Positions 45,435 to 61,900 of a stretch of DNA of 64,000 nucleotides are shown one piece after another; the stretch's first letter is position 1; every line of letters begins with the position of its first letter. The position numbers and the translations under genes were made by a program. This DNA is from a virus (taxonomy: Duplodnaviria > Caudoviricetes). Under the pieces are notes generated by a model that was not told the origin of the DNA, did not search any database, and saw nothing but the letters and a program-made list of their open reading frames with translations. The DNA lies in the IMG/VR virus record IMGVR_UViG_2716884858_000003, positions 1 to 64,000 of that record; one strand, 5' to 3'.

Positions 45435-45883
45435 GCCACCACGTCACGGTCCGGCACAACTTCGAGACCGCCCACCGCGTGCCGCACCTGCCCGGCAAGT
45501 GCACCAACCTGCACGGCCACTCCTGGTGGGCAGAGATCACCGTCACCGCACCAGAGCTGTCCCGCGGCGGCATGGTCGTGGAGTTCGGCGCCTTCAAGAA
45601 GCTGCTGCGCCGGTGGATCGATGACTACCTGGACCACGGCGCCATGCTCGGCGCCCAGGACGCCCTGCTGCCCATCCTGCGCGCCCACGGCTCCAAGGTG
45701 TACGAGGTGACCGGCTGGCCCACCGTGGAGGCCACGGCCGAGCTGCTCGCCCACGTCGCCGGCGACATCCTCACGGACCTGGTGCGCGCGGAGGGCGCCT
45801 ACGTCTCCCGAGTCCACGTCACCGAGACCCACGTCAACGGCGCCACCTGGACCGCGCCCGCCCCGGCCGGGGCGACCGCATGA
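45431..45883 (+). CDS. queD: 6-carboxytetrahydropterin synthase
   Basis: FETAHR...KCTNLHGHS, LDH, PTVE. Confidence 0.92.
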   Translation: MSHHVTVRHNFETAHRVPHLPGKCTNLHGHSWWAEITVTAPELSRGGMVVEFGAFKKLLRRWIDDYLDHGAMLGAQDALLPILRAHGSKVYEVTGWPTVEATAELLAHVAGDILTDLVRAEGAYVSRVHVTETHVNGATWTAPAPAGATA

Positions 45884-46611
45884 CCCCCGACACCGTCACC
45901 GTCGACACCACCGACACCCTCGTCATCCGAGAAGTGTTCGGCTGCACCGTGCAAGGAGAGGGACCCTCCTGCGGGCGGCGCTGCTCGTTCATCCGCCTGG
46001 GCGGCTGCAACCTGACCTGTGGCTGGTGCGACACCCCGGAGACCTGGGACGCGGGCCGATTCGACCTGCGCCAGACCCTCACCCGCACCCCCGTCGCCGA
46101 GATCGTCACCCGCGCCCTGGAGGGCGACCCCGGCATGGTCGTCATCACCGGCGGGGAACCCCTGCTCCACCAGCGCAAGGACGGCTGGCGCTCCCTCCTC
46201 GGCGCGCTCATCCTCGCCGGCACGGAGATCGAGGTGGAGACCAACGGCACCCAGGAGCCCGAGGAGCACACCGCCCGCTGGGTGACCCGCTTCAACGTCT
46301 CGCCCAAGCTCGCCCACGCCGGCGACCCCGCGGACAAGCGCATCCGCCCCGGCGCCCTGTACGCCCTGCACGACACCCACAAAGCCGTCTTCAAGTTCGT
46401 CTGCTGCAACACCGCCGACGTCCATGAGGTACAGGCGTTCACCGCCGCCCACGGCATCCCGCCCGGCCTGGTGTGGGTGATGCCCGAGGGCACCGACACC
46501 GCCACCATCTCCACCCGCCTGGGGGAGATCGCCGACCCGGCCATCGCCGCCGGATTCAACCTGAGCACCCGCCTGCATGTACATGCCTGGGGCGACGAGA
46601 AAGGCCGATAG
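45880..46611 (+). CDS. queE: 7-carboxy-7-deazaguanine synthase (radical SAM)
   Basis: TVQGEG, FIRLGGCNLTCGWCDT, TGGEP, ETNG, SPK, RLH. Confidence 0.93.
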   Translation: MTPDTVTVDTTDTLVIREVFGCTVQGEGPSCGRRCSFIRLGGCNLTCGWCDTPETWDAGRFDLRQTLTRTPVAEIVTRALEGDPGMVVITGGEPLLHQRKDGWRSLLGALILAGTEIEVETNGTQEPEEHTARWVTRFNVSPKLAHAGDPADKRIRPGALYALHDTHKAVFKFVCCNTADVHEVQAFTAAHGIPPGLVWVMPEGTDTATISTRLGEIADPAIAAGFNLSTRLHVHAWGDEKGR

Positions 46612-46615
46612 ACCC

Positions 46616-47287
46616 ATGACCACCACCGAGCCCAAGGGCCTGCGGATCGCCCCCGGCGCCCTCACCCCCAAGCCCTCCCGCTCCATCACCGTCCCGGCCC
46701 CCGCCTACCCGGGCGACCCGCTGCCCGGCGCCGTGGCGCTCCAGGCCGGCGTACGGGCCTGGCTGGAGGCCCGCGGCCTGGACGCGGACGCCCCGGACCT
46801 GGTGGACACCCCCGCCCGCGTGCTCCGGGCCCTCAACGAGATGACCGCCGGCTACGACGAGGACCCCGCCCAGCACCTCGCCCGGACGTTCCCGGCCCAG
46901 CACGCCGGGACGCCGATCGTCGTCACCGGCGTGCCGTTCACGTCGCTCTGCGCCCACCACCTGCTCCCGTTCACCGGGCACGCCGATATCGCCTACCAGC
47001 CCCGCTTGGGCGACCCCGTGGCCGGACTGTCCAAGCTCCCCCGCGTCCTGGACGTGTACGCCCGCCGCCTCCAGACCCAGGAAGACCTCACCCGCCAGGT
47101 GACCGCCGCCCTGGACGAGCACCTGGCTCCCCTCGGCGCCGCGTGCGTCATCCGCTCCGAACACGGCTGCCTCGCCCACCGAGGGGCCCGCAAGCCCGGC
47201 GCCGTCATGGTCACCGCCTCCTACACCGGGTGCTTCGACGCCGACGTGTACCGGCGGGAGGAGCTGCACCGCCTCATGTCCGGCTGA
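46616..47287 (+). CDS. folE: GTP cyclohydrolase I
   Basis: TPARV, SLCAHHLLPF.G, GLSKL.R, RRLQ.QE, HGC..RG. Confidence 0.93.
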   Translation: MTTTEPKGLRIAPGALTPKPSRSITVPAPAYPGDPLPGAVALQAGVRAWLEARGLDADAPDLVDTPARVLRALNEMTAGYDEDPAQHLARTFPAQHAGTPIVVTGVPFTSLCAHHLLPFTGHADIAYQPRLGDPVAGLSKLPRVLDVYARRLQTQEDLTRQVTAALDEHLAPLGAACVIRSEHGCLAHRGARKPGAVMVTASYTGCFDADVYRREELHRLMSG

Positions 47288-47334
47288 CCCCCCGATATGC
47301 GAACCAATAGGCACATGCGAACGGAGGGCACCCG

Positions 47335-47784
47335 ATGAGCGCCAGCAGGGCCAAGCGCGCCCAGGTCGCGGAGCGCCGCGCCAAGGCCATCGCCATGGTG
47401 CTGGCCGGAGTCGATTACGAGACGATCGCCGACCGGCTCGGCTACGCGAGCAGAGGCGCCGCGCACACCGACGTGGACCGCGCCCTGGCCGCGAACCTCA
47501 CCGACCTGGAGACCTCGGCGGGCAGCCTGCGGGAGGTCCAGTTCATGCGCTACCAGCGGCTGCTGGCCGCCGTGTGGCCCAAGGCCCTCAAGGGCGACCT
47601 GAAAGCGGTGGAGGGAGCGGCGCGGCTGGTCGACCGCATCGTGAAGCTTTGGGGCCTGGCCGAGCCGGAGCGGCTGGACCTCAACGTGGACGCCCAGAGC
47701 CTGGGGGACGAGATCCTGGCGCTCCTGCGCGAGCAGACCAGCGACGGCGACGAGGGCGACGAGGATGCGTCTGACCTGCCGTAA
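47335..47784 (+). CDS. Terminase small subunit (putative)
   Basis: N-terminal HTH (Y.TIADRLGY); immediately upstream of the large terminase. Confidence 0.7.
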   Translation: MSASRAKRAQVAERRAKAIAMVLAGVDYETIADRLGYASRGAAHTDVDRALAANLTDLETSAGSLREVQFMRYQRLLAAVWPKALKGDLKAVEGAARLVDRIVKLWGLAEPERLDLNVDAQSLGDEILALLREQTSDGDEGDEDASDLP

Positions 47785-47915
47785 CGACCCTGTACCAGGG
47801 CACCGTTGGCGTGATCTTGGAGGCCGCTGCGCCCCTACCATTTCAGGCGAAAGCCCCGTAGCGGCGGCCACCGCCACGGGGCACTGCCAGACCTGAAGAC
47901 ACGTGAGGTCCGACG

Positions 47916-50567
47916 TTGCAGAACAGTACAGACCGCCTGAGCGCCGTCGAGGCGCAGCTCGCCGCTCTCGTGCGCGCGGGGGACACCAAGGCCCTCCGCG
48001 CGCTGCGGGACCGCGTCAAGGCCCAGCACACCACCAAGCGCGCTCGCCGCGCCGTGCACTATTACAAGGACCCGGCCGGGTGGGCGCGGGACGCCATCGA
48101 CTGGGGCAGCGACGGCGGCCTGACGGCCTACCAGGCGGACATCCTGGGCGAGCTGCCCGCCCGCAGGCGCGTGGCCGTGCGCGGACCCCACGGCCTCGGC
48201 AAGGCGCAGCCGTACGGCCTCCTCATCGACACCCCGTCCGGGCCCCGGAAGTTCGGGGAGCTCCAGGTGGGTGACACCGTGTTCGGCTCGGACGGCCGAC
48301 CCACGTCCGTCATCGGCGTGTACGAGCGTGGCGAAATGGACGTCTACCGCGTGACGTTCGATGACGGCACCTCCACCCTGTGCTCCGCAGACCACCTCTG
48401 GACCGTCAAGCGGTTCACCTGGTCAAGGAACGCCCCCGTGGAGTGGGTGACGAAACCCCTCTCGGAGATCATGGCGGAGGGCGTCGACCGCTCGAACGGG
48501 AAGGGTCGGGCCCGTAAGTGGGCGCTGCCCACCGCGGAGCCGCTGGAGTACCCGTTTCGGTGGGTGCCCGTGGACCCGTACACCCTCGGCGCCTGGCTCG
48601 GCGACGGGTCCAGCGGTAAGGGCACGATCAGCGGCAAGGACCGGGAGGTGGCGGAACGCGTCCGGCACGCCGGGTACCACGTCGTGGAGCGGGAGACACG
48701 CACCTGCCAGGAGTGGTCCGTCTACGGCCTCGGCCCTGCCCTCCGCCGCCTCGGCCTCCTCGGCACCAACGTCCGCGCGAAGGCTGTCCCGGACGTCTAC
48801 CGCTACAACATCCCGGAGGTGCGTCGGGAAGTGCTCCGCGGCCTCCTGGACACGGACGGCACGGTCACGCCCGAGGGCACCATCACGTTCACCAGCGTCA
48901 GCCGACAGCTCGCGGATGACGTCGCCTGGCTCGCCCGCTCCCTGGCCGGTACGGCTGCCGTCCACCGCCGGGTGAAGCGGCGGGAGGGCGAGGAGCCGTA
49001 TGAGTTCTACGTCGTCCGGCTCACCCTCCCGGAGGGCCGCTGGTTCCACATCGAGCGCAAGCAGGCTCGCGTCAAGCCGGTGAGTCAGAAGCGCTACCTG
49101 TGGCGGTGGATCGCCTCCGTGGAGCACGTGGGCGCGGGGCCCGTCCGCTGCATCCAGGTCGCCGCGCCGGACGGCCTGTACGTGTGCAACGACGTCATCG
49201 TGACCCACAACACCGGCCTGGCCGCCATCACCATTCTGTGGTTCGCCACCACTAGGGAGGCGGCGGCCGTCGACTGGAAGGTCATTTGCACCGCCTCCGC
49301 CTGGAGACACCTGCAAGTTTTCTTGTTCCCGGAAGTGCACAAGTGGGCACGCCGCATTCGCTGGGACGTGCTGGGCCGAGAGCCGTTCTCGGAGCTGACG
49401 GAGCTGCTGGCGCTCAACCTCAAGCTCCACCACGGCGCCGCCTCGGCCGTCGCCTCCAATAAGGCCGAGCTGATCGAGGGCGCGCACGCGGACTCCCTCA
49501 TGTACCTCATTGATGAGGCCAAGATCGTGCCCGATGGCACGTGGGACGCCATTGAAGGCGCGTTCTCGGGCGGCCGGGACGAGGGCCTGCCCGAGTCGTT
49601 CGCCCTGGCCATCTCGACGCCGGGCCCGCCCGCCGGCCGGTTCTACGAGATCCACAAGCGCGCCCCGGGCCTCGAAGACTGGCACGTACGGCACGTGACG
49701 CTCGAGGAGGCCATCGCCGCCGGCCGCATCTCGCCCCAGTGGGCCGAGCAGCGCGCCAAGCAGTGGGGCACCGACTCCGCCATGTTCGCCAACCGCGTCC
49801 TGGGGGAGTTCCACGCCTCCGACGAGGACAGCGTCATCCCCCTCTCGTGGGTGGACGCTGCGATCGAGCGGTGGCACGAGTGGGACCAGGCCGGCCGCCC
49901 CGAGCCGGACGGCCGCCGCGTGCTGGGTGTCGACGTCGCCCGAGCCGGCGGGGACTCCACCGTCCTGGCGCACCGCTGGGGCCTGGTCGTCGCGGAGCTG
50001 GAGATCCACGACCGTGAGGACACCATGCAGACCACCGCCCGCGTCCAGGGCGCCCTGGGCGAGGAGCCCGGCGGTGCCGTCGCCGTGGTCGACTCCGTGG
50101 GAGTGGGCGGTGGCGTCATCGACCGCTCCCGGGAGCTGCGCGTGCCCGTGCTGGCCTACACCGGCGCGGCCGGGACCAAGCTGCGCACCCGCGACGGGCA
50201 GTACGGGTTCACCAACACCCGCAGCGCCGCGTACTGGAGGCTGCGGGAGCTGCTCGACCCCGCCTTCGGCGCCCGGCTCGCCCTCCCGCCGGACGACCTG
50301 CTGGTGTCCGACCTGACGACGCCGACGTGGGACATCACCACCGGGGTGCCGCCCAAGATCAAAGTGGAGCCCAAGGACGACGTGGTCGCCCGCCTCGGCC
50401 GCTCCCCGGACAGGGGCGATGCGGTGGCCATGGCCATGTACGCGGACCACCTGGCCGCGTCCAAGGTCCACGCCCCCGGCGGCCAGCGCGACGGCCGGTC
50501 CTCCCGTGCCGCTGCTCGCTACGGCCGCCCGACGACCCAGGGCCTGCCACCGTCCAAGTTCACCTAA
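47916..50567 (+). CDS. terL: Terminase large subunit with intein
   Basis: Walker A GPHGLGK/T split by intein, LIDEA Walker B, ISTP, GVDVAR, SPDRGDA nuclease motifs. Confidence 0.92.
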   Translation: MQNSTDRLSAVEAQLAALVRAGDTKALRALRDRVKAQHTTKRARRAVHYYKDPAGWARDAIDWGSDGGLTAYQADILGELPARRRVAVRGPHGLGKAQPYGLLIDTPSGPRKFGELQVGDTVFGSDGRPTSVIGVYERGEMDVYRVTFDDGTSTLCSADHLWTVKRFTWSRNAPVEWVTKPLSEIMAEGVDRSNGKGRARKWALPTAEPLEYPFRWVPVDPYTLGAWLGDGSSGKGTISGKDREVAERVRHAGYHVVERETRTCQEWSVYGLGPALRRLGLLGTNVRAKAVPDVYRYNIPEVRREVLRGLLDTDGTVTPEGTITFTSVSRQLADDVAWLARSLAGTAAVHRRVKRREGEEPYEFYVVRLTLPEGRWFHIERKQARVKPVSQKRYLWRWIASVEHVGAGPVRCIQVAAPDGLYVCNDVIVTHNTGLAAITILWFATTREAAAVDWKVICTASAWRHLQVFLFPEVHKWARRIRWDVLGREPFSELTELLALNLKLHHGAASAVASNKAELIEGAHADSLMYLIDEAKIVPDGTWDAIEGAFSGGRDEGLPESFALAISTPGPPAGRFYEIHKRAPGLEDWHVRHVTLEEAIAAGRISPQWAEQRAKQWGTDSAMFANRVLGEFHASDEDSVIPLSWVDAAIERWHEWDQAGRPEPDGRRVLGVDVARAGGDSTVLAHRWGLVVAELEIHDREDTMQTTARVQGALGEEPGGAVAVVDSVGVGGGVIDRSRELRVPVLAYTGAAGTKLRTRDGQYGFTNTRSAAYWRLRELLDPAFGARLALPPDDLLVSDLTTPTWDITTGVPPKIKVEPKDDVVARLGRSPDRGDAVAMAMYADHLAASKVHAPGGQRDGRSSRAAARYGRPTTQGLPPSKFT
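48204..49211 (+). mobile_element. Class 3-type intein with LAGLIDADG homing endonuclease (336 aa)
   Basis: Starts AQP, ADHLW, VRCIQV, ends VTHN/T; LGAWLGDG and LRGLLDTDG. Confidence 0.9.
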
Positions 50568-50859
50568 AGCCTCGGACGCGAGACCCGGACCAGCTCCCGG
50601 GCGTCCAGCAGCTCAACAACAGGCTTGCCGACACACCTGTCGCTTGGCAAGGCTCGGGCGTGCGGCGAGGGAATTCCCCGTATGGCTGCGGCCAGCTGCA
50701 TGCCGGCGACCGGGAAGTGTTGAGGGGGCGGCTTACGGTGTAGAGGAGCGGACTCACCTCCGCTGGCGCGGAGAGCACTTCGCGACCAGGTGCCACAGGC
50801 GGATGAGTTGCGACCCACCTCCGCTCGAGCGGAGGTGAACCGGTCGCCGCGCGTGGCTT

Positions 50860-52390
50860 CTGGTCCGAAAATGAAAGGTGAGCCCAGGTCCGCGAGGTAG
50901 TGGGTGGGGTGTGTTCATGCGGCTTCGATGGGGTCGAAGCGGACGGTGAAGCCGAGGGCGTTGGCCTGCCGGGTGATGCGTCGCATGGCGCGTTCCGGGT
51001 TGTGCCTGGCGTAGTAGTCGCCGCCGAGGTCGTGGAAGGCGACGTTGTCGGTGAGGATGTGCCAGACAGCGGTCAGCAGGGTGTGTTCGAGGGCAACGAG
51101 GGCTTTCTTCTTGCCGAGACGGGGCACGAGGCGGTGGTAGCGGGCGCCGGGGTAGGTGCTCTTCCTGGTGTGGGAGGCGGCCATGGCGGCGGTGCCGAGC
51201 GTGGCGCCCAGCCAGCGGTTTCCGTGGCGCCGACGTCCGGACTTGTGTTTCCCGGCGGACTCATGGTGGCCAGGGCAGACCCCGGCCCACGAGGCCAGAT
51301 GGCCCGCGGTGCGGTAACGGGCCATGTCCCCGCCGGTCTCGGCGATGATGACCTCAGCGACGGCCCTGCCGACACCGGGAATGGTCTGCAGCAGCTCAAT
51401 CTGCTGGGAGAAAGGGAACATCTCGGCCTCGATCCGTGCGGACAGCTCCCCGATCGCCTCGGTGAGATGGTCGATCCGCTCCAGATGCAGCCGGCACAGG
51501 AAAGCGTGATGCTCACCGAAGTTCCCGGTCAGTGCCTCCACCAGTGCGGGGATCTTCGGCCGCATCCGGGCTTTGGCCATCCCCGCCAGGGCGTGGACAT
51601 CGCGCTCCCCCTCGATGAGCGCGTCCAGCATCGCCCGCCCGGAGACGCCCATGATGTCGGTGGCCACGCTGGAGAGCTTGATGCCCGCGTCCTCCAGCTC
51701 CTTCTCCAGGCGCTGGACTTCCCGGGACCGCTCCGCGGTCAGGCTGGCGCGGTAGCGGGTCAGATCCCGTAGGTGCCGGACCGGCTCGGGCGGCACGAAC
51801 GACGCCTTGAGCAGGCCGCATTCGCCGAGCTGGCACAACCAGGCGGCATCGGCGACGTCGGTCTTGCGGCCGGGCAGGCCCTTGGCGTGCGCGGCGTTGA
51901 CCAGGATCACGTTCAGGCAGTCCTCCAGCAGGTAGAACGCACCTCGCCAGTAGTCGCCCGTCGCTTCCAACACCACGAGGGTGACCTTCTCGGCGAGCAG
52001 CCAGTCCCGCAACTCGAGCAGGGAGTTGGTTACGGTGGCGAACGTACGGATCTCCTGCCGGCGCGAACGCCTGCCGGAAGGATTCGGGGTGCGGACGCAC
52101 GCCTTGAGGTCCTTCTTGCCGATATCCAGCGCGGCACACCGCTCATGCAGTACGTCCACGAATCCCTCCCAGGCAACGACGTGACATGCCAACGGCACGC
52201 CGTCCGGAGGGACCACAGGGCTGAAGAGTCTGGTCCGCGTGCTGCCGCAACAATTGACGGTCCCTGTCAGCGATCCCCATCGCCATCCTGACACGCGAGC
52301 TCACAAGGCATCACAGTGAAACCGGCGTTCCGGACGGAGCAGACTCATTTTCCCGCCTCCACGGCGGCCCGCGCAGCGGCCTGGGTTCCT
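50860..52390 (-). mobile_element. IS110-family element 1
   Basis: Transposase plus non-coding ends bounded by CT cores. Confidence 0.85.
50915..52159 (-). CDS. IS110 transposase
   Basis: ALDIGK, LEATG, KTD..DA (DEDD) and GVCP..HESAGK. Confidence 0.95.
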   Translation of the reverse strand: MDVLHERCAALDIGKKDLKACVRTPNPSGRRSRRQEIRTFATVTNSLLELRDWLLAEKVTLVVLEATGDYWRGAFYLLEDCLNVILVNAAHAKGLPGRKTDVADAAWLCQLGECGLLKASFVPPEPVRHLRDLTRYRASLTAERSREVQRLEKELEDAGIKLSSVATDIMGVSGRAMLDALIEGERDVHALAGMAKARMRPKIPALVEALTGNFGEHHAFLCRLHLERIDHLTEAIGELSARIEAEMFPFSQQIELLQTIPGVGRAVAEVIIAETGGDMARYRTAGHLASWAGVCPGHHESAGKHKSGRRRHGNRWLGATLGTAAMAASHTRKSTYPGARYHRLVPRLGKKKALVALEHTLLTAVWHILTDNVAFHDLGGDYYARHNPERAMRRITRQANALGFTVRFDPIEAA

Positions 52391-53904
52391 GGTCCGAAAA
52401 TAACGTCTGAGCCTCCGCTGGGCAGGCGGTGTCATGCGGCCTCGATGGGATCGAAGCGGACGGTGAGGCCGAGGGCGTTGGCTTGCCGGGTGATGCGGCG
52501 GAGGGCTCGTTCGGGGTCGTGCTTGGCGTAGTAGTCGCCGCCGAGGTCGTGGAAGGCGGCGTCATGGGTGAGCATGTGCCAGACCGCGGTCAGCATCGAG
52601 TGCTCCAGGGCGACCAGGGCTTTCTTCTTGCCCAGGCGGGGCATCAGACGCATGTAGCGGGCGCCGAGGTAGGTGCGATCGCGGGTGCGGGAGGCGGCCA
52701 TGGCCGCGGTGCCCAGGGCGGCGCCGAGCCACCGGTTGCCGTGTCGTCTGCGGCCGGACTTCTGTTTGCCGGCGGATTCGTGGTGGCCGGGGCAGACACC
52801 GGCCCAGGAGGCGAGGTGCCCGGCGGTGCGGAAGCGGGACATGTCGGCGCCGGTCTCCGCGATCAACACCTCCGCGACGGCCTGCCCGACTCCGGGGATG
52901 GTCTGGAGCAGCTCAACCTGGCGGGCAAAAGGGTGCATCTCCTCCTCGATCCGCGCGGAGATCTCCGCGATGGTGGCCTTGAGGTGGTCGATGCGCTCCA
53001 GGTGCAGACGGCACAGGAAGGCGTGGTGCTCGCCGAAGTTCCCGGTCAGCGCCTCCATCAGTTCGGGGATCTTGGGGCGCATGCGGGCCTTGGCCATCTG
53101 GGCCAGGGTGTGCACGTCGCGTTCCCCGTCGATGAGCGCGTCGAGCATGGCCCGGCCGGAGACGCCGAGGATGTCGGTGGCCACCGCGGAGAGCTTGATG
53201 CCTGCGTCCTCGAGTTCCTTCTCCAGCCGCTGGGCCTCGCGGCTCAGCTCGCCGGCGAGGGTGGTGCGGTAGCGGGTGAGGTCGCGCAGGTGCCGGATGG
53301 GCTCCGGCGGCACGAACGAGGCTTTCAGCAGCCCGCACTCGCCCAGCTGGCACAGCCAGGCCGCGTCCGCGACGTCCGTCTTGCGGCCGGGCAGGCCCTT
53401 GGCGTGGGCTGCGTTCACGAGGATGACGTTGAGGCAGTCCTCCAACAGGTAGAACGCGCCGCGCCAGTAGTCGCTGGTGGCCTCCATGACCACCAGGGTG
53501 ATGTTCTCCGCGACCAGCCAGTCCCGCAGCTCCAACAGGGCGTTGGTGGTGGTGGCGAAGGTTCGGATCTCCTGGCGACGGCTGCGGCGTCCGCTCGGGG
53601 AAGGGGTGCGCACGCACGCCTTGAGGTCCTTCTTGCCGATGTCCAGCGCGGCGCACCGCTCGTGCAGCACGTCCATGAGAGCCCTCCCCGTCTACGGCCG
53701 ACAGCAACAGCGTGCCGTCCGGAGGGGCCACAGGGCTGAAGAGTCTGGTCCGCGTGCTGCAGCAACAATTGACGGTTCCTGTCAGCGGCCCCCGACGCCA
53801 TACTGACGCTCGAGCTCATAGGCATCACAGATTCGCCGGCGTCCCGGACGGACACGCCCCCATTTTCCCGGCCTCACGGCGGCCGCGCAGCGGCCTGGGT
53901 TACT
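52389..53904 (-). mobile_element. IS110-family element 2
   Basis: Close paralog of element 1, same CTGGTCCGAAAAT end. Confidence 0.85.
52432..53676 (-). CDS. IS110 transposase
   Basis: DEDD motifs as in element 1. Confidence 0.95.
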   Translation of the reverse strand: MDVLHERCAALDIGKKDLKACVRTPSPSGRRSRRQEIRTFATTTNALLELRDWLVAENITLVVMEATSDYWRGAFYLLEDCLNVILVNAAHAKGLPGRKTDVADAAWLCQLGECGLLKASFVPPEPIRHLRDLTRYRTTLAGELSREAQRLEKELEDAGIKLSAVATDILGVSGRAMLDALIDGERDVHTLAQMAKARMRPKIPELMEALTGNFGEHHAFLCRLHLERIDHLKATIAEISARIEEEMHPFARQVELLQTIPGVGQAVAEVLIAETGADMSRFRTAGHLASWAGVCPGHHESAGKQKSGRRRHGNRWLGAALGTAAMAASRTRDRTYLGARYMRLMPRLGKKKALVALEHSMLTAVWHMLTHDAAFHDLGGDYYAKHDPERALRRITRQANALGLTVRFDPIEAA

Positions 53905-55534
53905 GACGCGTAAATAGATCCTGTTCAGGGTGGGTGTGGGTAGGGCTGGGCGCCCGGTGACCGTGGCGGGGCCGCCGGGTGTCCGGTTTGTCGGTCAGGC
54001 TGTGTTCTCCCTCGGGTTGAGGGTGACGGTGTAGCCGAGCTGGTTGAGCTGGTTGATGGCTCGGCGGGTGGCGCGTTCGGGGTCGCGTTGGGTGAAGTAG
54101 GTGCCGCCGAGCTCGTGGTAGGGGACGTTGTCGGTGAGCATGTGCCAGATCGCGGTGATGATCGAGTGCTCGACGGCGACCAGTGCCCTGAGCGGGCCGC
54201 GGCGGGCGGTCAGACGCTTGTAACGGGCCTGCAGGTAGGTGTCCTTGGTTCTCACCGCGCCGAATGCCGCGAGGCCGAGGGCGCCTTTGAGGTAGGGGTT
54301 GCCGGGCCGGACCTTGGTGTTCTTGGTGCGGCCGGCGGATTCGTGGTGGCCCGGGCAGACCCCGGCCCAGGACGCGAGGTGCTTGGCCGTCGCGAAGCGG
54401 GTCATGTCGCCGCCGGTCTCCGCGACGATCACTTCGGCGGTCGCCTGGTTGATCCCGGGGATGGTGTCGAGCAGGTCGAGGGCGTCACGAAAGGGAGCCA
54501 TCGCCTCCTCAACCCGCCCGGAGAGCTGGTCGATCATGGAGGTGAGCTGGTCGTACTGGTTCAGATGCAGGCGTGTCAGGAACGCGTGGTGCTCGCGGAA
54601 GCGTCCGGTCAGGGCCTCGGTGAGTTCGGGGATCTTGTTGCGGAGCTTGCGCTTGGCCAGGTCCGCGAGGACCTGCGGGTCGGCTTCGCCGCTGATGAGG
54701 GCTTCGAGCATGGCCCGGCCGGAGACGCCCATGATGTCGGAGGCGACCGCGGAGAGTTTGATGCCGGTGTCCTCCAGCAGTTTCTCCAGCCGCTGCACCA
54801 CGCGGGAGCGTTCGCGGGTGGCGGTGGTCCGGGCCCGGGTGAGGTCGCGTAGTTCACGGACCGGTTCGGGCGGCACGAAGGAGGGCCTCACCAGGCCGTG
54901 GGCACCGAGCTGGGCCAGCCAGGCCGCGTCCGAGACATCCGTCTTGCGGCCGGGCAGGTTCTTGACCTGCCGGGCGTTGACCAGGATCACGTTCAAGCCC
55001 TCGGACAGCACGTAGTAGAACGGCTTCCAGTAGTCCGAGGTCGCCTCGATCACCACCAGCGTCACCCGTGCGGCGAGCAGATGGTCGCGCAGGGCGAGGA
55101 CCGCGTTCGTCGTCGATCCCCACGTCGTGGTCTCGGTCGTGAAGGACCCCCGCCGCTTCGTACTCGGAGTACGGACACATGCCTTGGCGTCCTTCTTGCT
55201 GATATCGAGGCCCACGCAGCGTTCGTGCAGCACGTCCACGGCCTTGCTCCCTCCCGTGCCGAACAGCCGAGTACGCCGTTCCGGGAGGGCCAGGGTGAAT
55301 CAGGAATTCTGACGCACGTGCTCACAACAACACTCCACGGTTCCCGTGGACGGCCCCCAGCACCACGCTGACCTGCGAGCTCACCGGCATCACAGAAATA
55401 TCGGTTTCGGCCGGAACGGACACCACCACGATCCCGAACGGCATCACCCCAGGTCAGGGCAGACAGAAGCACCTCCGGCGCGCACACGGGATTTACCACG
55501 CCCCCGGCGCGCACCGAAGGTGCGCTGGATCGCT
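53903..55534 (-). mobile_element. IS110-family element 3 (more divergent)
   Basis: Ends CTGACGCG... and ...GGATCGCT; right end inferred from guide-like match. Confidence 0.75.
53995..55239 (-). CDS. IS110 transposase
   Basis: GLDISK, IEATS, KTD..DA, GVCP..HESAG. Confidence 0.95.
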   Translation of the reverse strand: MDVLHERCVGLDISKKDAKACVRTPSTKRRGSFTTETTTWGSTTNAVLALRDHLLAARVTLVVIEATSDYWKPFYYVLSEGLNVILVNARQVKNLPGRKTDVSDAAWLAQLGAHGLVRPSFVPPEPVRELRDLTRARTTATRERSRVVQRLEKLLEDTGIKLSAVASDIMGVSGRAMLEALISGEADPQVLADLAKRKLRNKIPELTEALTGRFREHHAFLTRLHLNQYDQLTSMIDQLSGRVEEAMAPFRDALDLLDTIPGINQATAEVIVAETGGDMTRFATAKHLASWAGVCPGHHESAGRTKNTKVRPGNPYLKGALGLAAFGAVRTKDTYLQARYKRLTARRGPLRALVAVEHSIITAIWHMLTDNVPYHELGGTYFTQRDPERATRRAINQLNQLGYTVTLNPRENTA

Positions 55535-55592
55535 GACCTGCGAAAAAGGGAAGCTTGAGGCAGGGGCGGGAAGATCGCGGACGATCCTCAAA

Positions 55593-55640
55593 GGACTCAT
55601 AATCCGTCGGCCGTGGGTTCGAGTCCCACCCGCCCCACCA
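55593..55640 (+). other. attR core: 3' half of a CAT-anticodon tRNA (Ile2/Met type)
   Basis: GGA-CTCATAA-TCC, GTGGG-TTCGAGT-CCCAC T-arm, CCGCCCC-ACCA; no canonical TAGC/D-loop GG upstream. Confidence 0.8.
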
Positions 55641-55994
55641 CAAGCATGCCCTGGCCTGCGGAAACGTTCCTCGTCGGGTGTTGGAGCGTCAACTTCCGTC
55701 CAGCGGACGGAATCCGCTGCTCGCGTGCTTGGGGTCGTAGCGGTCTGTGGCGGTCGGCACTCCGCTGACCTGCGGGGACGTATCGATCCGCTCGTGGCCC
55801 GAGCCATCGCGGGTCGCCGGTCTGGCGACGGAACGGTGATTTGAGGACGCTGGCAGGTCGCGGGGACCGGAAGTGTCCTCGAGGGTCGGTGGGTGCGGTG
55901 TGTGCCTGCTGTGGAGCGCAAGGTGTTCCTGGCCCTACGGCAGGGCCCCGCCGCTCCTGGTGGGTGCGGCGGGGCCCGGGTGTCGGTGGTGGGG

Positions 55995-58900
55995 TCAGTG
56001 CAGTGCGCCGACCTCGGTTGCTGAGAGCGTCCGTGGGTAGACGTGGAGGTCGGCGACGGAGCCGGGGAAGGCCAGGTAGGGGCTGGTGGCTGCTGCGCTG
56101 TTGACGCAGCCGCCGATGGTCAGGGGCATGGAGGAGTCGTACTGGGGGCTGAGGTTGGTGGCGGTCCCCATGAGGGTCCCGTTTTGGTAGAGGGCCATCG
56201 AGCCGGTGCCGGACTTTCCGGCGACGGGTGCCCGGTAGGCGGCGACGAGGTGGGTCCAGGTGCCGATGGGGCCGGTGTTGGGGTCTCCTTCTGCGGTGGG
56301 GAAGTCGGAGTTCTCGTCGTTGGTGGTGGTGGTCTGGAACATCCAGGCGCCACTGGGTTTGTCGTAGGAGATGTAGAACGCCTGGTGTTGGGTGGTGCCC
56401 TGGCAGACAGCGGTGGTGCCGAGGGCTGAGTTGATCTTCACCCAGGCGGAGACGGTGTAGTCGCCGAGTGTGTTCACCGCGCTCTGCTTGCTCTTGAGGA
56501 AGCCGGTGTTCCCGTCGAAGGCGACGCTGCCGGCCATCCCGCTCGGTGCGTCGGTGCCGTAGGTGGCGCTGCCGGAAGCGGTGAACGGGTTGAGGGCGGC
56601 GGTGTCGGTCCCGCTGGTGGCGAGCTTCCATTCGTCCTCGGGCATCCCGTTGCCCCAGCCCGCCGGCACGATCACGCTGTCTGCGCCGGCCTGGTCGCTC
56701 GGCATGGCGTACGGGTAGGTGTGAACGTCGGCCACGGAGCCGGGGAAGGCGGCGTACGGCGTGGTCGCGTCGACGCTGTTGACGCAGCCGCCGATGGTCA
56801 GGGGCATGGACGAGTCGTACTGCGGGGTGACGTTGTTGGCCGTCCCCATCAGGGTGCCGTTCTGGTAGAGCGACATCACGCCCGTGCTGGAGTCGCCGTC
56901 GACCGGGGCCGTGTACGTGACCAGCAGGTGCGCCCAGGTGCCTACGGCGGCGGTGTTGCTGTCTCCCTCTGCGGTGGGGAAGTCGGCGCTGGCGTCGTTG
57001 GTGGTCGTGGTCTGGAACATCCAGCCCTTGTTGCCGCTGTCGTAGCCGATGTAGAGGGCCTGGTGCTGGCTGGTGCCCTGGCAGATGGCGGTGGCGCCGA
57101 CATCTGAATTGATCTTCACCCAGGCGGAGATGGTGTAGTCGCCGGAGGTGTTGACGGCGGTGTGGTCGCTCTCCAGGAATCCGGTGCTGCCGTCGAACGA
57201 CGCCGAGCCGGCGCCGGCGTTGACCGCGTTGGGGCCGTCGGAGCTGAAGGTCGCGCTGCCGACTGCGGTGAGCGGGTTGTCTGTGTTGCTGTCGGTGCCG
57301 TCGGTGGCCAGCTCCCAGTCGTCCTCGGGGGTGTCGCTGCCGGTGGCGAGCGGGACGATCAGGTTCGGCTTGATGTCGACCACGGTGTTGGTGTCGTTGA
57401 GGTACTGGCTGGCGAGGTCGGTGTAGTAGGCGTTGGAGGGGTTGCCGCCTGAGAGGTCGGCCGCTTTCACGGTTGAGGAGGTGGTGTTGCCGTCCGTGGA
57501 GACCGCGGCGGCGAAGTCGATGACCTGGGTGGAGAAGCTGTCGAACAGGTAGCCGTTGACCAGCTGACGTGCGGATTCCTGGGTTGCTGTGCCTGGGTGG
57601 GCGGCGGTGAAGGGCGGGATGGTGGCGAGGTAGACGGTGATGTTGGAGTTCTGGGTGATCGGATTGTTGTTGGCGTCGTAGGTCTGGCTGTCGTCGGTGT
57701 AGTACGAGCTCAGCTGGCTGTTGAGGGAGGCCAGTCCGTTCTCCACGTTGGTGGCGCAGGTTCTGGCGTCGCTGGTGCAGTTGAGGAGGTCGGCGGCGCC
57801 GGTGGAGACGAGGACGGTGCGCACGTTGCCCTGGGCCAGCACGTTGCGGTCCACGGGGTTGAGCGCGTCTTTCGGGACGACGCTGTTGGTGATCTGGGGC
57901 AGCAGGTTGTTGCTCAGGCTGGTGCTGTTGGTGCCCGCGTTGAGGACGCCGTAGTCCACGGAGTTGTCCCCGTTGGTGTCACTGACCAGAGCGTTGGTGA
58001 TGGCGTCGCTGAGGTGGTATGGGCTGTTGCTGCTGCCTGCGGTATCACCGTTGATGCTCTGGTCGCCGTAGAGGACCAGCGAGCCGGTGGGGGTGGAGGT
58101 GGGGGTGTAGCTGGGGGTGGTGACGTCGATGCCGGTGAGGTAGGGCAGACCGGTGTAGGTGGTCTGCGTGTAGTTGGTGGCGGCGGTGTCACTGGTGCGG
58201 TTGGCGGCATCGCTGGCCCAGACGGGGGTCTGGGCCACGGCGTGGCCGGGCATCGCCGACGTTGAGCCGTGCACCTGCAGGCTGATCAGGACGGTCGCCT
58301 GTTGTGTGACGGGCAGGGTCACTGGGTTGCTGGTGGCGTCGCCACCTGCCGGGATGGTGACGGAGGGGGAGGCGGGGGTGCCGAAGGTCAGCGGGGTCGG
58401 GGTTGCGGTCGCGGTGGCGCCGCCTGCTGTGGTGTCCTGCAGTGCGACGGAGGCCGCGTCGAAGGTCACCGGGGTGGTGCCCATGGCGTTGGACAGGTGG
58501 ATGCGTACGCCGTTGCCGGTGTCGGTACCGACACTGACGTGCGCTGGGATACGGAGCGTCTGCCCTGCGTTGATGCTGGCGGTGTTGCCGTTGGACTGCT
58601 GCACCTTGGCGGTGTCCTGGACCGAGGCCCAGGTGCCGACCCAGTGCTGGGGGCTTGATCCGCCGGTGAGGGTCATCGGCCGCAGGCCGAGCCCGAGGAC
58701 GTGCAGGGAGGGCTGGCCTGCCTGGACGCCGTTGGTGAACAGCGGCAGGGAGATGCTGCTGACGACCGAGCCGGGGCATTGCAGCGGGACGCTGATGGCG
58801 TAGATCTTGGGGCCGGGGCTCGGGCTGGTCTGTGTGTTGTTGCTGTGGTTCTCGTGGACCAGGCTGATGGAGGCCGCGGAGGCCGGGCCGGAGAGCCAGT

Positions 58901-61900
58901 CGGGCACGGTGTCCAGTTGGTAGGGCTGATCGAATGGGTTGTTTTGGTCCGCGCAGTTGTTCTTGGCGTAGGTGATGGTGCCGCCGGTGCCCTTGGCGGC
59001 GCCGCCGGTGGCGAAGGCGAGGAAGACCAGGGCGTCGCCGGTGTTGACCACTCCGCTGCCCGGCAGGGTGATGGTCTGGCCGGAGGCCAGCATGTTGTCG
59101 TACGTGCCGGTGCCGAACTTCGGCAGTGTGACGGTGGCGCCGTCGACGGTGACGGTCTTGTTGCTCTGCCAGCCCGACGTGCTCGTCAGGTCGGATGAGT
59201 TGATGCTGTTGCCGGAGCCGTCGGCGTCCGCTGTGCTGGTTGTGGTGGTGAAGGTGCTGGTGGCGGTGTTGTTCAGGCAGCTGCTGGTGTCGTTGATCGC
59301 GCACGTGAGTGCCGAGCCGAGGCGCAGTACGTCGATGCCGGCCTGGTAGCCGGTGGAACTGGGGTTCTTGCCGCTCAGAGTGAGGGTGAGGGTGTGTACG
59401 CCTTGTTTGAGGGTGAGCAGCTGGCCGCCGGCGTCCTTGGGGATGCCGAGGTTGAGGAACTGGGTGGTGGTGTAGGAGTTGTAGGCGTCGAAGCCGCTGA
59501 TCAGGGTGGACTGGGTGCTCTGGCCCGCGTCCAGGACCAGGCGGTAGATCCCGTAGTCCTTGCCCTTGGTCAGGTTCGCTCCGAAGCTCCAGGGGCCGTC
59601 CTTGGGGATGTCGAAGCTGAAGGTGGCGCTGTCACCGCTGATGACCTTCGAGGTGGTGCTCTTGTTGGCGAGCATGGCCTGGTAGCCGTCGGCGAAGTCG
59701 TAGCCGCTGAAGGCCGCCTGGCTGATCAGCTGGCCGCCGGTGCTGGTGGTCGTGGCCTTGGGTACGGCAGTGGTGGTGCCGTCAGTGTTGGTCGCGGTCC
59801 AGCCGCTGATCATCTTGTCGCCGTAGGCGTAGGTCGGGGTGCTGGTCCCAGCGTAGAAGACGTAGGACGTCTCGGAGAGGGACGTCGAGCCGGCCTGGTC
59901 CACCGCCTTGGCGTACAGCGTGTGAGGTCCGGCCGAGCCGGGGGCGAAAACGGGGGAGGCACTGCCGTTGAGGACCGAGGTCCCGGTGCCGGGACCGTTG
60001 TCGGACGTGGCGTAGTAGATGTTGCCCTTTGTGATTTTCGTGCTTGCTGTCAAGTGGATGACGCCGCTGCTGGTGTACACCGTGCTGGCGAGTGTGGCGT
60101 CCAGGGAGAACAGGTAGCCGGTGATGTTGTTGGTGTGGTTGTTGCCCAGGACGAAGGTGCCCTGGTCGCCGAAGGCGGCGCCGATCTGCTTGGCGGGGAA
60201 CTGACTGGAGGTCACCGTGGGGGAGGGTGGGGCGCTGGTGTCCACGGTGAAGGTCTGGGTCTTGGTCCAGATGCCGGAGCCGGGGCCGACCCAGTAGCCT
60301 GCCGCGTTCTGTGCGGTGGCCTTCCAGGTGTAGGTGCCGTCCGGCAGGTGCGGGGTTGTCCAGTCGCTGCCGTTGGTGTTGTAGCGTGCGCGTTTTTTGG
60401 AGTCGAGGTTGGGGCCGAAGCCCTGGCCCACGAGGGTGCCTGAGGAGTTGTAGACGCTGTAGTCGATGCGCACCAGCTCGCTGCCGCCGGCCAGGTCGGG
60501 GTCGACCGCGCGGGCGGACAGCGTCGGGGTGTGGGTGGTGGTCATCGTCTTGCCCGAGCTGACGATGGACGGCTTGATGGCGGGGGTACCGGTGCCGTTC
60601 TTGAGCTTGGGCCGGTAGCTGTAGGTGACCGACAGGGTGGCGCCCCCGCCGTAGGCGAGCTGCTTCCACTGGTAGGGGTCGTTCATGTCGGGCGACTGGA
60701 CCATCAGCGTCATGCTGCTCCAGCTGCCGCCCGCCGCGCTCTGGGCCCGGGAGGTGACATCGAACTCCAGCGACGGCGGGCTGACCCAGGAGTTGGACCC
60801 CTCTTTGACCGGGCAGGTGCCGGCCTCCTTGCTCTTCGGGTCGGTGCCGAGGGCGCCGGTGCGCCCGCCGGGCTCATGCCCCCAGTACAGCGAGGAGGAG
60901 TTCCATCCGGCGGGGCGGTCGGTGCCGTAGACGGCGGCCGGGGTGTCGTCGCAGGAGGCGGCGGAGAGCTGGGTCACGTACAGCGAGGCATGACTGACCA
61001 CGGCGCCCTTGATGCCGCTGGTGTTGATCTGGTAGTAGGTGCGGGCGCGCTCACCGTTGCCGGGGGCGGTGTTGTCCCATCCCTCCCGGGCGTTGGTCGC
61101 TCCGCTGGTGGACGTCGAGTTGTAGACGTTCCACCCGTTGTCGGAGATCCGGGCCCAGTCCAGCTGGGAGGGCCTGCCGCTCCACTCCGGGTCCACGTAG
61201 ACCGGGTAGGTGGTGGTCTTGGCGGTGAGCAGGGACTTGTCCAGGCCGAGCAGCTGCTTGCCGTGCTTGAGAGTCACATGCACCCGGGCACGGTGCGTGC
61301 CGACCCTGGCTGCGGCGGTGTGCTCGGCCCGCGCGGCAGAGACGGTCGCCGTCCGGGCGAGCGCCTTGCCTCCGGCCTTCTGGCCGGTGCTGTCCCACAT
61401 CAGCGCGGTGTCGCTGTGGAACACCGTCTTACCGGTCTGCTTGTCGGTGGCCTGGGCGCCGCCGTTCGCGGTGGCGGCCAGCTTGAGGTTGGCCGCAGTG
61501 GTGTTCCATGCGAGGCTTTGCAGCCGCGGATCGGCTGCGGCCTTGGGGGTCTTGACCACCAGGATCGAGGAGTAGCCGGAGGCGTCCGCGGTCAGCTGGA
61601 GGTCGACCCCGGGCAGCACCTCCGGGTAGGTGGCGGTGTCTTTGGAGATCACCGGTTTGGGGAGTGCGCCCGGCCAGGAGAAGCCCAGCTTGTCGGCCCC
61701 GTCGCGCATCGTGACCAGCGCGCCGGAGCCACCGTCGGAGAAGGCCACGTGCGTGACGGCGGCCTTGGGTGCCCAGGTCCCGTCCGGCTGCCGCACCAGG
61801 GTGGTGTCGATGGGGACCCATTTGCCTTGCTGCTGCACACGCTGGGGCATCGAGGTATCGGTCCGGGTGAAGGTGCCGTCCGGGTTGGCCACCACCTGGG

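What the first reader, a model, noticed from the sequence alone, without database searches (positions are those of the whole stretch)
50860..55543. Head-to-tail IS110 stack whose bridge-RNA-like guides read out the insertion history
Seen: junctions share a CT core (50860, 52389, 53903, 55533). At one aligned position in the upstream non-coding region each element carries its own end sequence: CTGGTCCG at 52230 and 53745, CTGACGC at 55309. At a second aligned position, element 3 has CTGACCTG (55368), matching its flank at 55533, and element 2 has CTGACGC (53803), matching the end of element 3. Element 1 has CTGACACG (52288), yet abuts a donor-like end. Known: IS110 bridge RNAs have target- and donor-binding loops. 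Inference: element 3 targets the CAGGTCAG motif near att, element 2 targets element 3's end, and element 1 joined through a donor-type junction.
Basis: partly seen in the sequence, partly recalled or inferred. Interest (0 to 1): 0.72.

Follow-up and report, generated by a model that had tools for sequence, protein, structure and literature searches.

The report
Three stacked RNA-guided IS110 elements
Three jumping genes of the RNA-guided IS110 family sit head-to-tail beside a tRNA gene, and short guide segments in their non-coding RNAs match their neighbours, showing that two of them home to the right end of the third.

Summary
Window 50860-55532 holds three intact IS110-family elements on the minus strand: E1 50860-52388, E2 52389-53902 and E3 53903-55532. 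Every junction is CTG on the + strand. In 71 related elements the same two RNA positions covary with the DNA: one with the flank next to the left end, the other with the element's own right end. I also found a second, short target guide and a 2-nt handshake-like dinucleotide. E3 (type A) sits in a conserved motif upstream of tRNA-Met; four other Streptomyces genomes carry that motif unoccupied. E1 and E2 (type B) belong to a lineage whose long target guide matches the right end of other IS110 elements, so they home to E3's right end. A simpler history fits at least as well. E1's guide pairs with E3's right end (7 Watson-Crick pairs plus one G-U), as in its relative L007. So E1 probably inserted first and E2 later went in between. 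This is a new variant of a known kind and is moderately interesting.

The parts
50860..52388 (-). E1, IS110-family element of type B, 1529 bp. Its right end is at 50860 and its left end at 52388.
   Evidence: Boundaries come from relatives L007, L008 and L009, which are 91-92% identical over the whole element and lose similarity at both ends. The flanks are CTG at both junctions.
50915..52159 (-). E1 recombinase gene, 414 aa.
   Evidence: PF01548 and PF02371. NF033542 at 260 bits against a cutoff of 140. D12, E65, D101, D104 and S301 are invariant.
52389..53902 (-). E2, IS110-family element of type B, 1514 bp.
   Evidence: 83% DNA identity to E1 and 88% to L014. A public contig from run X10 matches 52389-53916 with 19 differences and diverges after that.
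52432..53676 (-). E2 recombinase gene, 414 aa, 87% identical to E1.
53903..55532 (-). E3, IS110-family element of type A, 1630 bp.
   Evidence: 68-71% DNA identity to E1 and E2. A 22-kb contig from run X18 matches 53903-55540 with unrelated DNA on both sides. 36 type A relatives share the same ends.
53995..55239 (-). E3 recombinase gene, 414 aa, 62% identical to E1.
   Evidence: Weak but specific matches to the solved ISCro4 and IS621 recombinases, with the DEDD and Ser motifs aligned.
55366..55378 (-). E3 long target guide plus a 2-nt handshake-like extension. In RNA sense it reads UCGCAGGUCAG+CG.
   Evidence: 13-nt identity to the junction at 55531-55543. This position covaries with the flank in relatives.
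55393..55401 (-). E3 short target guide, RNA AUAUUUCUG. It is complementary to CAG plus the DNA to the right of the right end.
   Evidence: In type A, 3.54 of 5 positions pair against 3.07 in shuffles; 23 of 10000 shuffles reach the observed value. It pairs with the stack's outer right flank AAG through A-U, A-U and G-U.
55309..55315 (-). E3 long donor guide, RNA GCGUCAG, equal to E3's own right end.
   Evidence: The last 7 nt of the donor guide equal the last 7 nt of the right end in 61 of 64 elements.
53801..53809 (-). E2 long target guide plus 2 nt, RNA GCGUCAG+UA.
   Evidence: 9-nt identity to the E3/E2 junction at 53901-53909.
53745..53752 (-). E2 long donor guide, RNA CGGACCAG, equal to E2's right end at 52389-52396.
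53828..53836 (-). E2 short guide position, RNA GCGAAUCUG.
   Evidence: Homologous position. In type B it shows no significant pairing with the right flank (2.27 against 2.03; 882 of 10000 shuffles reach the observed value).
52286..52295 (-). E1 long target guide plus 2 nt, RNA CGUGUCAG+GA.
   Evidence: It does not match the adjacent E2 right end (5 Watson-Crick pairs, 2 wobbles and 1 mismatch of 8). It pairs with E3's right end at 53903-53910 (7 Watson-Crick pairs plus 1 G-U).
52230..52237 (-). E1 long donor guide, RNA CGGACCAG, equal to E1's right end at 50860-50867 and also to E2's right end.
52314..52322 (-). E1 short guide position, RNA GUUUCACUG.
   Evidence: Homologous position.
55533..55547 (-). 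Chromosomal target half-site next to E3's left end. In sense it reads TTTTTCGCAGGTCAG.
   Evidence: The same motif lies unoccupied upstream of the same tRNA in 4 Streptomyces genomes (L099, L101, L111, L113). It is occupied by type A in L055 and L065.
50850..50859 (-). Outer right flank of the stack. In sense it reads AAGCCACGCG.
   Evidence: It is compatible with E3's short guide. It is not homologous to the empty sites, so a later rearrangement cannot be excluded.
55563..55640 (+). tRNA-Met (CAT).
   Evidence: ARAGORN.

Best explanation
The region is a stack of three autonomous IS110-family bridge-recombinase elements. Each one encodes, upstream of its recombinase gene, a structured RNA with four guide features:
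- a long guide identical to the DNA just outside its left end;
- a short guide complementary to the DNA just outside its right end;
- a long guide identical to its own right end;
- a 2-nt extension of the long target guide that covaries with its own left-end start, like the IS621 handshake guide.

E3 (type A) used both target guides to enter a conserved motif, CGCAGGTCAG|A, about 20 bp upstream of tRNA-Met. E1 and E2 belong to a sister lineage (type B). The long target guide of type B is tuned to the right end of other IS110 elements, and its short guide shows no fit to what follows. Type B therefore recognises essentially a half-site.

That half-site survives each insertion. A later type B element can then enter at the same point, so the stack grows with the newest element next to E3. 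The most likely order is E3, then E1 at E3's right end, then E2 between E3 and E1. E1's mismatch with its present neighbour is the trace of that order.

Shown: the anatomy, the boundaries, guide-DNA covariation, and type B's preference for right-end-like targets. Inferred: that the RNA is made, that it guides recombination, and the order of events.

Sub-confidences: guides are functional bridge-RNA guides, 0.9; type B homes to IS110 right ends, 0.85; order E3 > E1 > E2, about 0.6.
For: The three proteins have both IS110 domains and pass the NCBIfam cutoff. The catalytic D, E, D, D and S residues are invariant and align to IS621 and ISCro4.

The survey covered 71 elements: 68 in 66 of the 79 genome loci, plus 3 in the window. 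The other 13 loci lacked the conserved anchor and were left out.
- The long target guide matches the flank at 4.47 of 6 variable positions, against 2.90 for non-cognate pairs. This rests on 45 distinct pairs, and 0 of 10000 permutations reach the observed value.
- Three copies in one genome (L053-L055) have different DNA beyond position -7.
- The donor guide equals the right end in 61 of 64 elements.
- The 2 nt after the target guide equal the left-end start in 37 and 36 of 38 distinct cases, across four states.
- The short guide pairs with the right flank in type A (23 of 10000 shuffles reach it) but not in type B (882 of 10000).

Four empty sites read CGCAGGTCAG|AG.

19 of 26 distinct type B left flanks look like IS110 right ends, against 3 of 23 for type A. 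Type B elements L007, L008, L009, L011, L012, L014 and E2 sit on TATTTACG[C/T]GTCAG.

The other six loci carrying E1's guide variant GCGUGUCAG with a readable left flank sit as follows. Two are on perfect targets (L009, L081). Two are on wobble targets: L007, whose target sequence is identical to E3's right end, and L210. One is on a donor-like end (L010).

The consensus fold has covarying helices.
Against: No RNA or activity data are available. No Rfam family matches, and single-sequence folds of E1 and E2 are no better than shuffles. The fold topology is not that of IS621. The short donor guide is conserved, so it cannot be tested by covariation.

The order of events has no direct witness. 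No genome or contig with E3 joined directly to E1 at this locus was found.

In three other type B junction types, the flank equals the element's own donor end while the target guide fits badly (L010, L017b, L164/L165). In L165 the sequential-insertion model fails. Donor-type events therefore do seem to occur in this clade.

The stack's outer right flank is not homologous to the empty sites of other genomes.
Confidence: 0.6

Rival explanations
1. This is the reader's history: E3 first, then E2 at E3's right end, then E1 at E2's right end. The last step is a donor-type, left-donor half-match event. E1's donor loop recognises E2's right end, which is identical to E1's own (ATTTTCGGACCAG).
For: E2's right end and E1's own right end share 13 of 14 nt.

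For IS621, a preprint reports that single half-sites suffice in vitro. In vivo it counts LD-only insertions at 21 sites and 57 reads out of 168 sites and 5183 reads (10.64898/2026.08.31.748434, section 8 read).

Another preprint reports LD-only matches at the boundaries of tandem IS110 units (10.64898/2026.08.14.744561, section 8 read).

In this clade, 3 of 34 distinct type B junction types have a flank equal to the element's own donor guide and 2-3 mismatches to the target guide. In L165 no alternative history fits.
Against: In the IS621 data such events are about 1% of reads, so a canonical event is far likelier a priori. If E1 had arrived after E2, its guide fits the preserved E3 half-site well. 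The canonical product would then be E3-E1-E2, which is not what is seen. All three closest relatives of E1 (L007-L009) sit directly on type A ends.
Confidence: 0.28
2. E2 and E1 were already joined elsewhere and moved as one 3-kb composite. E1's right end is the same as E2's, so E2's donor loop would accept the junction between E1's right end and E2's left end. The composite then entered at E3's right end through E2's target guide.
For: The donor guides and right ends of E1 and E2 are identical. Expanded and multi-module IS110 loci are reported in preprint 10.64898/2026.08.14.744561. In one metagenome-assembled genome, six copies of a type B element carry the same upstream element (L022, L023, L025-L028).
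Against: No second E2-E1 junction was found. The right-end/type-B-left-end junction pattern occurs in 0 of 401 sampled Streptomyces genomes and nowhere else in the 114-kb record. The same preprint says whole-unit mobility declines with size.
Confidence: 0.07
3. The matches are chance or simply shared ancestry of related elements, and the stack arose by duplication or homologous recombination without RNA guidance.
For: E1 and E2 are paralogues (83% DNA identity). The octamer CTGGTCCG is not rare in the window (7 found against 6.3 expected).
Against: Guide and flank covary across independent insertion sites (0 of 10000 permutations). An 11-mer is shared by guide and flank against 0.08 expected. 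The empty sites are known. The three elements are 68-83% identical, so they are not recent duplicates.
Confidence: 0.02

Closest known systems
IS621 and the IS110-group bridge-RNA recombinases (Durrant et al. 2024, PMC11208160; Hiraizumi et al. 2024, PMC11208158; passages read)
   Same: The recombinase has the DEDD RuvC-like domain plus a Tnp domain with Ser. The non-coding left end is long and the right end short. One RNA carries a target module followed by a donor module. Each module has one guide in the sense of one DNA strand and one guide complementary to the other strand, overlapping at a shared core. A 2-nt handshake-like extension follows one guide. A CT dinucleotide lies at every junction.
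   Different: In the RNA's own sense, the long guide (8-11 nt) is the 3' guide of the loop and the short guide is the 5' one. The junction reads CAG. The IS621 layout is recovered only by calling the antisense strand 'top', so the core polarity relative to the recombinase gene is inverted. The fold differs: one outer helix encloses both modules, and a long-range helix pairs GGGGGCCG with UGGCCCUC. There is no Rfam match. Protein similarity is low (E 6.6e-8, Tnp domain only). The figures of the six other bridge RNAs in that paper are not held, so I cannot say whether this arrangement is among them.
Half-match (LD-only or RD-only) recombination and tandem IS110 modules (preprints 10.64898/2026.08.31.748434 and 10.64898/2026.08.14.744561; abstracts and one section each read)
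   Same: Repeated insertion into occupied IS110 loci, head-to-tail modules, junctions that match only the left donor arm, and no target immunity.
   Different: Those reports concern copies or parts of one element and off-target events. Here the stack is made of three different elements. For two of them, the neighbour's end is the programmed target of the target guide rather than an off-target. [quoted passage not shown] In type B the surviving half-site appears to be enough.
[quoted passage not shown]
   Same: A member of the wider IS110/IS1111 family whose specific target is the end of another mobile element.
   Different: They belong to another group (RNA in the right end, long subterminal repeats). 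Their target is an unrelated transposon family rather than the donor end of a sister IS110 element, and no head-to-tail stacking logic is described.

Membership tests
IS110 family, IS110 group (bridge-RNA recombinase elements) | Recombinase with an N-terminal DEDD RuvC-like domain and a C-terminal Tnp domain with catalytic Ser | tested here: met
   PF01548 and PF02371 are present in all three proteins. NF033542 scores 259-263 bits against a cutoff of 140. D12, E65, D101, D104 and S301 are invariant and align to the IS621/ISCro4 motifs.
IS110 family, IS110 group (bridge-RNA recombinase elements) | Long non-coding left end upstream of the gene and a short right end | tested here: met
   Left end and right end measure 293 and 92 nt in E3, 226 and 43 nt in E2, and 229 and 55 nt in E1, from the boundaries and ORFs.
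IS110 family, IS110 group (bridge-RNA recombinase elements) | Target guide in the non-coding RNA that covaries with the insertion-site flank | tested here: met
   For the long guide, 45 distinct pairs give 4.47 against 2.90 matches of 6, and 0 of 10000 permutations reach that. The short guide in type A is reached by 23 of 10000 shuffles. Four empty sites are known.
IS110 family, IS110 group (bridge-RNA recombinase elements) | Donor guide that matches the element's own end | tested here: met
   The last 7 nt are identical in 61 of 64 elements; the exceptions are L017b, L030 and L032a. The short guide for the left-end start (GUUGCUG against CAG+[C/T]AAC) is conserved on both sides and therefore untestable by covariation.
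IS110 family, IS110 group (bridge-RNA recombinase elements) | Handshake guide: 2 nt after a target guide, complementary to the donor next to the core | tested here: met
   The 2 nt after the long target guide equal the left-end start in 37 and 36 of 38 distinct cases, with the states CG, CA, GA and TA. The donor-loop counterpart is weak (36 and 10 of 60).
IS110 family, IS110 group (bridge-RNA recombinase elements) | Two-loop RNA fold like IS621 (stem, guide, stem-loop, guide, stem, twice) | tested here: inconclusive
   Covarying helices exist. The hairpin at columns 101-115 has up to 25 double changes per pair, and the long-range helix 92-99/159-166 has up to 19. A short closing stem of the target module shows A-T/G-C covariation. 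The overall topology differs, and no Rfam family matches.
IS110 family, IS110 group (bridge-RNA recombinase elements) | CT core shared by target and donor on the strand that has the sense of the RNA | tested here: not met
   In RNA sense all 71 elements have CAG at both junctions, so CT is on the antisense strand. The guide order suggests that this CT is nevertheless the functional core. Which strand is cut first cannot be tested here.
IS110 family, IS110 group (bridge-RNA recombinase elements) | Expressed RNA, a circular intermediate and recombination activity | not testable with these tools
   No RNA run is listed as a holder. The laid contigs cannot show circles.
IS1111 group | RNA in a long right end, and subterminal inverted repeats of 7-17 bp | tested here: not met
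   The right ends are 43-92 nt and shorter than the left ends, and the guides lie in the left end. No subterminal inverted repeats stood out in the end alignments, but I ran no dedicated repeat search.

The most novel reading that the evidence does not exclude
This actinobacterial IS110 clade uses a mirror-image bridge RNA. Its guide order and core strand are inverted relative to the recombinase gene when compared with IS621. One sub-lineage (type B) has re-aimed its target loop at the donor end of sister IS110 elements and dropped the requirement for a matching right flank. It is in effect a parasite of a parasite. It builds head-to-tail stacks in which the position of an element and the misfit of its guide record the order of arrival.
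Probability: 0.4. Interest if true: 0.65.

Novelty: new variant of a known kind. Interest (0 to 1): 0.5.

Why it matters
The finding gives a natural test case for three open questions about bridge recombinases:
- how much of the target a natural bridge RNA really needs (type B appears to work on a half-site);
- whether donor-type half-match insertion happens in nature;
- how far the RNA architecture can vary (guide order, core polarity).

It also shows that guide-to-flank comparison can be used to annotate IS110 boundaries, to predict their targets, and in stacks to infer the order of insertion. For engineering, a natural recombinase with an 8-11-nt guide on one side and no need for the other side is both a warning about off-targets and a possible scaffold.

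Tried and rejected
- **Single-sequence folds**. The z-scores were -3.28, -0.32 and +0.47, which is uninformative for E1 and E2.
- **Rfam** at E<=1 over 49000-58000. Only sub-threshold hits on the tRNA.
- **Copies in the same record**. None beyond the three elements.
- **Left-flank homologues in 401 Streptomyces genomes**. 3 hits, and the best diverges after the ORF stop, so no empty site was obtained from that side.
- **Junction pattern TTTWCGNNNNCAGKAAYCCAG**. 0 of 401 genomes in those searched.
- **Viral contigs with the E1 protein**. No relatives.
- **RNA runs**. No RNA holder listed.
- **Read laying**. The joints in its table 5 have sides of 20-29 nt between paralogous elements, or come from a diverged copy, so they are not used. 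No contig joins E3 directly to E1.
- **Sigma-70 promoter scan**. 0 sites.
- **Alternative boundary model.** I considered a core at the CG 6 nt inside what I call the flank, prompted by the L032 tandem. I rejected it because the empty sites contain GGTCAG.
- **Heteroduplex or staggered-exchange model for L032 and L010.** Rejected because the other listed junctions show no hybrid ends.
- **GGAUCG in E3's left end as a guide for its own start.** A coincidence; it does not covary.
- **Six-mer scan for further guides**. Only the position 5' of UGAUGCC held up.
- **Sources not available.** Bruton and Chater 1987 is not held. Supplements and figures of the papers could not be seen; they may show whether this RNA arrangement or IS-on-IS targeting is already catalogued.
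- **Literature searches**. These found no paper describing an IS110 element whose target guide is aimed at another IS110's end. That is the limit of the claim.
Full report
**What is there**

Window 50860-55532 holds three ORFs of 414 aa on the minus strand: 50915-52159, 52432-53676 and 53995-55239.
- Each has the two IS110 domains PF01548 and PF02371.
- Each passes NCBIfam NF033542, 'IS110 family RNA-guided transposase', at 259-263 bits against a cutoff of 140.
- The catalytic D, E, D, D and S positions are invariant among the three. They align to the motifs of the solved ISCro4 and IS621 recombinases (E 3.5e-9 and 6.6e-8).
- E1 and E2 are 87% identical as proteins and 83% as DNA. E3 is 62% identical as protein and 68-71% as DNA. 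These are three different elements of two sub-lineages, which I call type A (E3) and type B (E1, E2).
- A tRNA-Met gene lies at 55563-55640 on the + strand.
- The record is a 114-kb IMG/VR provirus call and holds no further copies.

**Check of the observation**

Some matches are longer than reported.
- E3's guide region 55366-55378 is identical over 13 nt to the junction at 55531-55543. The 11-mer inside it occurs twice in 64 kb against 0.08 expected.
- E2's guide 53801-53809 equals the junction 53901-53909; it occurs 2 times against 0.29 expected.
- CTGGTCCG by itself is not rare (7 found against 6.3 expected). The case for it rests on position and on relatives.

The boundaries hold. Relatives lose similarity exactly at these junctions. 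Two independent public assemblies have contigs whose match stops at 53903/55540 (an E3-like copy in other DNA) and at 52389/53916 (an E2-like copy).

The elements are therefore E1 50860-52388, E2 52389-53902 and E3 53903-55532. Each is written with its right-end copy of the shared trinucleotide.

**Relatives and covariation**

A scan of one genome per prokaryotic species gave 79 loci.
- 66 of them carry the conserved anchor UGUGAUGC...GAGCUC upstream of the gene. That yields 68 elements, or 71 with the window's three. The other 13 loci had no anchor and were left out.
- Read in the sense of the recombinase gene, every element is flanked as flank...CAG|left end ... right end...CAG|flank.
Among 45 distinct flank/guide pairs, 4.47 of the 6 variable positions agree, against 2.90 for non-cognate pairs. 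None of 10000 permutations reaches the observed sum.
- Guide variants go with flank variants: GCAGGUCAG with CAGGTCAG, GCUGGUCAG with GCTGGTCAG, and GCACGACAG with CCCGACAG.
- Three copies in one genome differ upstream of position -7.

First, the 2 nt that follow the long target guide equal the first 2 nt of the element's own left end. This holds in 37 and 36 of 38 distinct cases, over the four states CG, CA, GA and TA.

Second, the 5-8 nt just 5' of ...CUG|UGAUGCC are complementary to CAG plus the DNA outside the right end.
- In type A, 3.54 of 5 positions pair against 3.07 in shuffles; 23 of 10000 shuffles reach this.
- There are clear covarying cases: GACUCUG with AGTCA, CGACUCUG with AGTCG, GCUCUG with AGC, and UUUCUG with AAA.
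- In type B there is no significant fit (2.27 against 2.03; 882 of 10000).

**Comparison with IS621**

In IS621 the 5' guide of each loop has the sense of the top strand left of the core. The 3' guide is complementary to the top strand from the core rightwards, and is followed by a 2-nt handshake guide complementary to the other DNA (passages of PMC11208160 and PMC11208158).

Here the RNA order is a short guide ending in CUG, then a spacer, then a long guide ending in CAG, then the 2 nt. In that case the RNA and the recombinase gene point the other way relative to the core than they do in IS621. In the RNA's own sense the core is AG within CAG. Which strand is cut first cannot be decided here.

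The fold has covarying helices: a hairpin, a long-range helix, a closing stem of the target module and an outer helix. It is not the IS621 topology, and Rfam has no match. Durrant et al. state that bridge RNA structures are diverse. Their figures are not held, so I cannot say whether this arrangement has been drawn before.

**E3's target**

The motif next to E3's left end is CGCAGGTCAG in sense. It lies unoccupied upstream of the same tRNA in four other Streptomyces genomes, always followed by AG. It is occupied by type A elements in L055 and L065.

E3's short guide predicts AAA to the right. The stack's outer right flank begins AAG, which gives A-U, A-U and G-U. The two outer flanks of the stack thus fit E3's two target guides. 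That outer flank is not homologous to the empty sites of the other genomes, so a later rearrangement on that side is not excluded.

**Type B homes to IS110 right ends**
- Type B elements L007, L008, L009, L011, L012, L014 and E2 sit on TATTTACG[C/T]GTCAG, the invariant right end of type A. Their guides match it.
- A metagenome scan gave 80 loci, of which 37 had the anchor; the other 43 were left out. With these included, 19 of 26 distinct type B left flanks have the form of an IS110 right end (xTTT[T/A/C]C...CAG), against 3 of 23 for type A.
- Type B's short guide does not fit what follows. The right flanks of type B are also diverse. So recognition seems to rest on the left half-site, and that half-site is still present after an insertion.

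**The E1 question**

E1's long guide (GCGUGUCAG) does not fit its present neighbour, E2's right end, well: 5 Watson-Crick pairs, 2 wobbles and 1 mismatch of 8. It pairs with E3's right end over 8 positions with one rU-dG wobble. That is at least as good as E2's guide, which has 7 pairs followed by a mismatch.

The other elements carrying this guide variant sit as follows:
- L009 and L081 are on perfect targets.
- L007 (91% identical to E1) and L210 are on wobble targets. L007's target is exactly E3's end sequence.
- L010 is on a donor-like end, as E1 is.

The simplest history is therefore E3, then E1 at E3's end, then E2 at the same half-site between them.

This is a documented kind of event for IS621 (LD-only half-match, about 1% of reads; preprint section read). 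It is also reported for tandem IS110 modules (preprint section read). It seems to occur in this clade: 3 of 34 distinct type B junction types have a flank equal to the element's own donor guide together with a poorly fitting target guide. In L165 the sequential model does not work.

I put sequential insertion at about 0.6, the donor-type event at about 0.28 and a pre-formed E2-E1 composite at about 0.07.

**What is new and what is not**

Already known from 2024:
- Non-coding RNAs of IS110 elements carry target and donor guides that match flank and ends.

Already reported in 2026 preprints:
- Occupied IS110 loci receive further insertions.
- Tandem modules have left-donor-only boundaries.

Appears new in the searches I ran:
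- a sub-lineage whose programmed target is the donor end of sister elements;
- the resulting stack of different elements, whose order can be argued from guide fit;
- the mirrored guide and core arrangement.

None of this has experimental support here.

**Left unexplained**
- Copies of 13-14 nt of the type A right end lie next to type B elements without any type A gene. These are seen in L012, in L014 (which also holds a second copy with no adjacent element) and in the X10 contig. A further solo copy lies in L069 next to a type A element.
- In the tandem pair in L032, the inner junction carries the flank sequence instead of the donor sequence.

Noticed in passing
L012:3765-3778; L014:3757-3770 and 7625-7638; L069 about 3662-3675 (minus strand); run X10 contig at window 53903-53916: Solo copies of the last 13-14 nt of the type A right end (ATTTACGCGTCAG) with no type A gene beside them. 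Those in L012, one of the two in L014 and the X10 contig directly abut a type B left end. The second L014 copy has no adjacent element, and the L069 copy lies, inverted, next to a type A element. They are longer than the 8-9 nt the guide specifies, and their origin is unclear (relics, or carried along?).
   Followed up: partly
L032:2100-5430: A tandem of two near-identical type B elements. The inner junction reads CGGACCAG, which is the sequence of the outer left flank and of the target guide. It does not read CGGGTCAG, which both donor guides and the outer right end have. No model I tried explains this.
   Followed up: partly
L042, L043, L047, L052, L057, L059 (type A elements with guide GCACGACAG): In six genomes this type A variant sits in the same target, AAGAT[C/T]CCCGACAG|AGTC, most often followed by AAGCT. 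Both of its target guides fit. The nature of this recurring target was not looked into.
   Followed up: no
L022, L023, L025-L028 (one metagenome-assembled genome): Six copies of a type B element all carry the same upstream IS110-like element ending in TTTTCCGGTCAG. Either a two-element composite is spreading, or the same carrier has been hit repeatedly.
   Followed up: no
window 38091-41753 (minus strand): Two adjacent genes with DUF3732 (E 1e-46) and the CTD7 domain of ABC-three-component systems (E 2e-44). This is a putative conflict or defence module.
   Followed up: no
window 45880-50567 (+ strand): A radical SAM gene, a GTP cyclohydrolase I gene (E 3e-54) and an 883-aa ORF with a LAGLIDADG_3 domain lie just left of the stack. 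This may be a deazaguanine-type pathway and an intein or homing-endonuclease-bearing protein.
   Followed up: no
window 55995-62174 (minus strand): A 2059-aa ORF with C-terminal Laminin_G_3 (concanavalin-like) domains lies right of the tRNA.
   Followed up: no
window 50586-50593: The right-end octamer of E1 and E2 (CGGACCAG on the + strand, that is, inverted) lies about 270 nt left of the stack. This is at chance level for the window.
   Followed up: partly
window 55533-55562 and L099, L101, L111, L113: The type A target upstream of tRNA-Met itself resembles an IS110 right end (TTTTCG.....CAG). It is conserved in Streptomyces, and in the other genomes GGAAGG-rich repeats lie further upstream.
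   Followed up: partly
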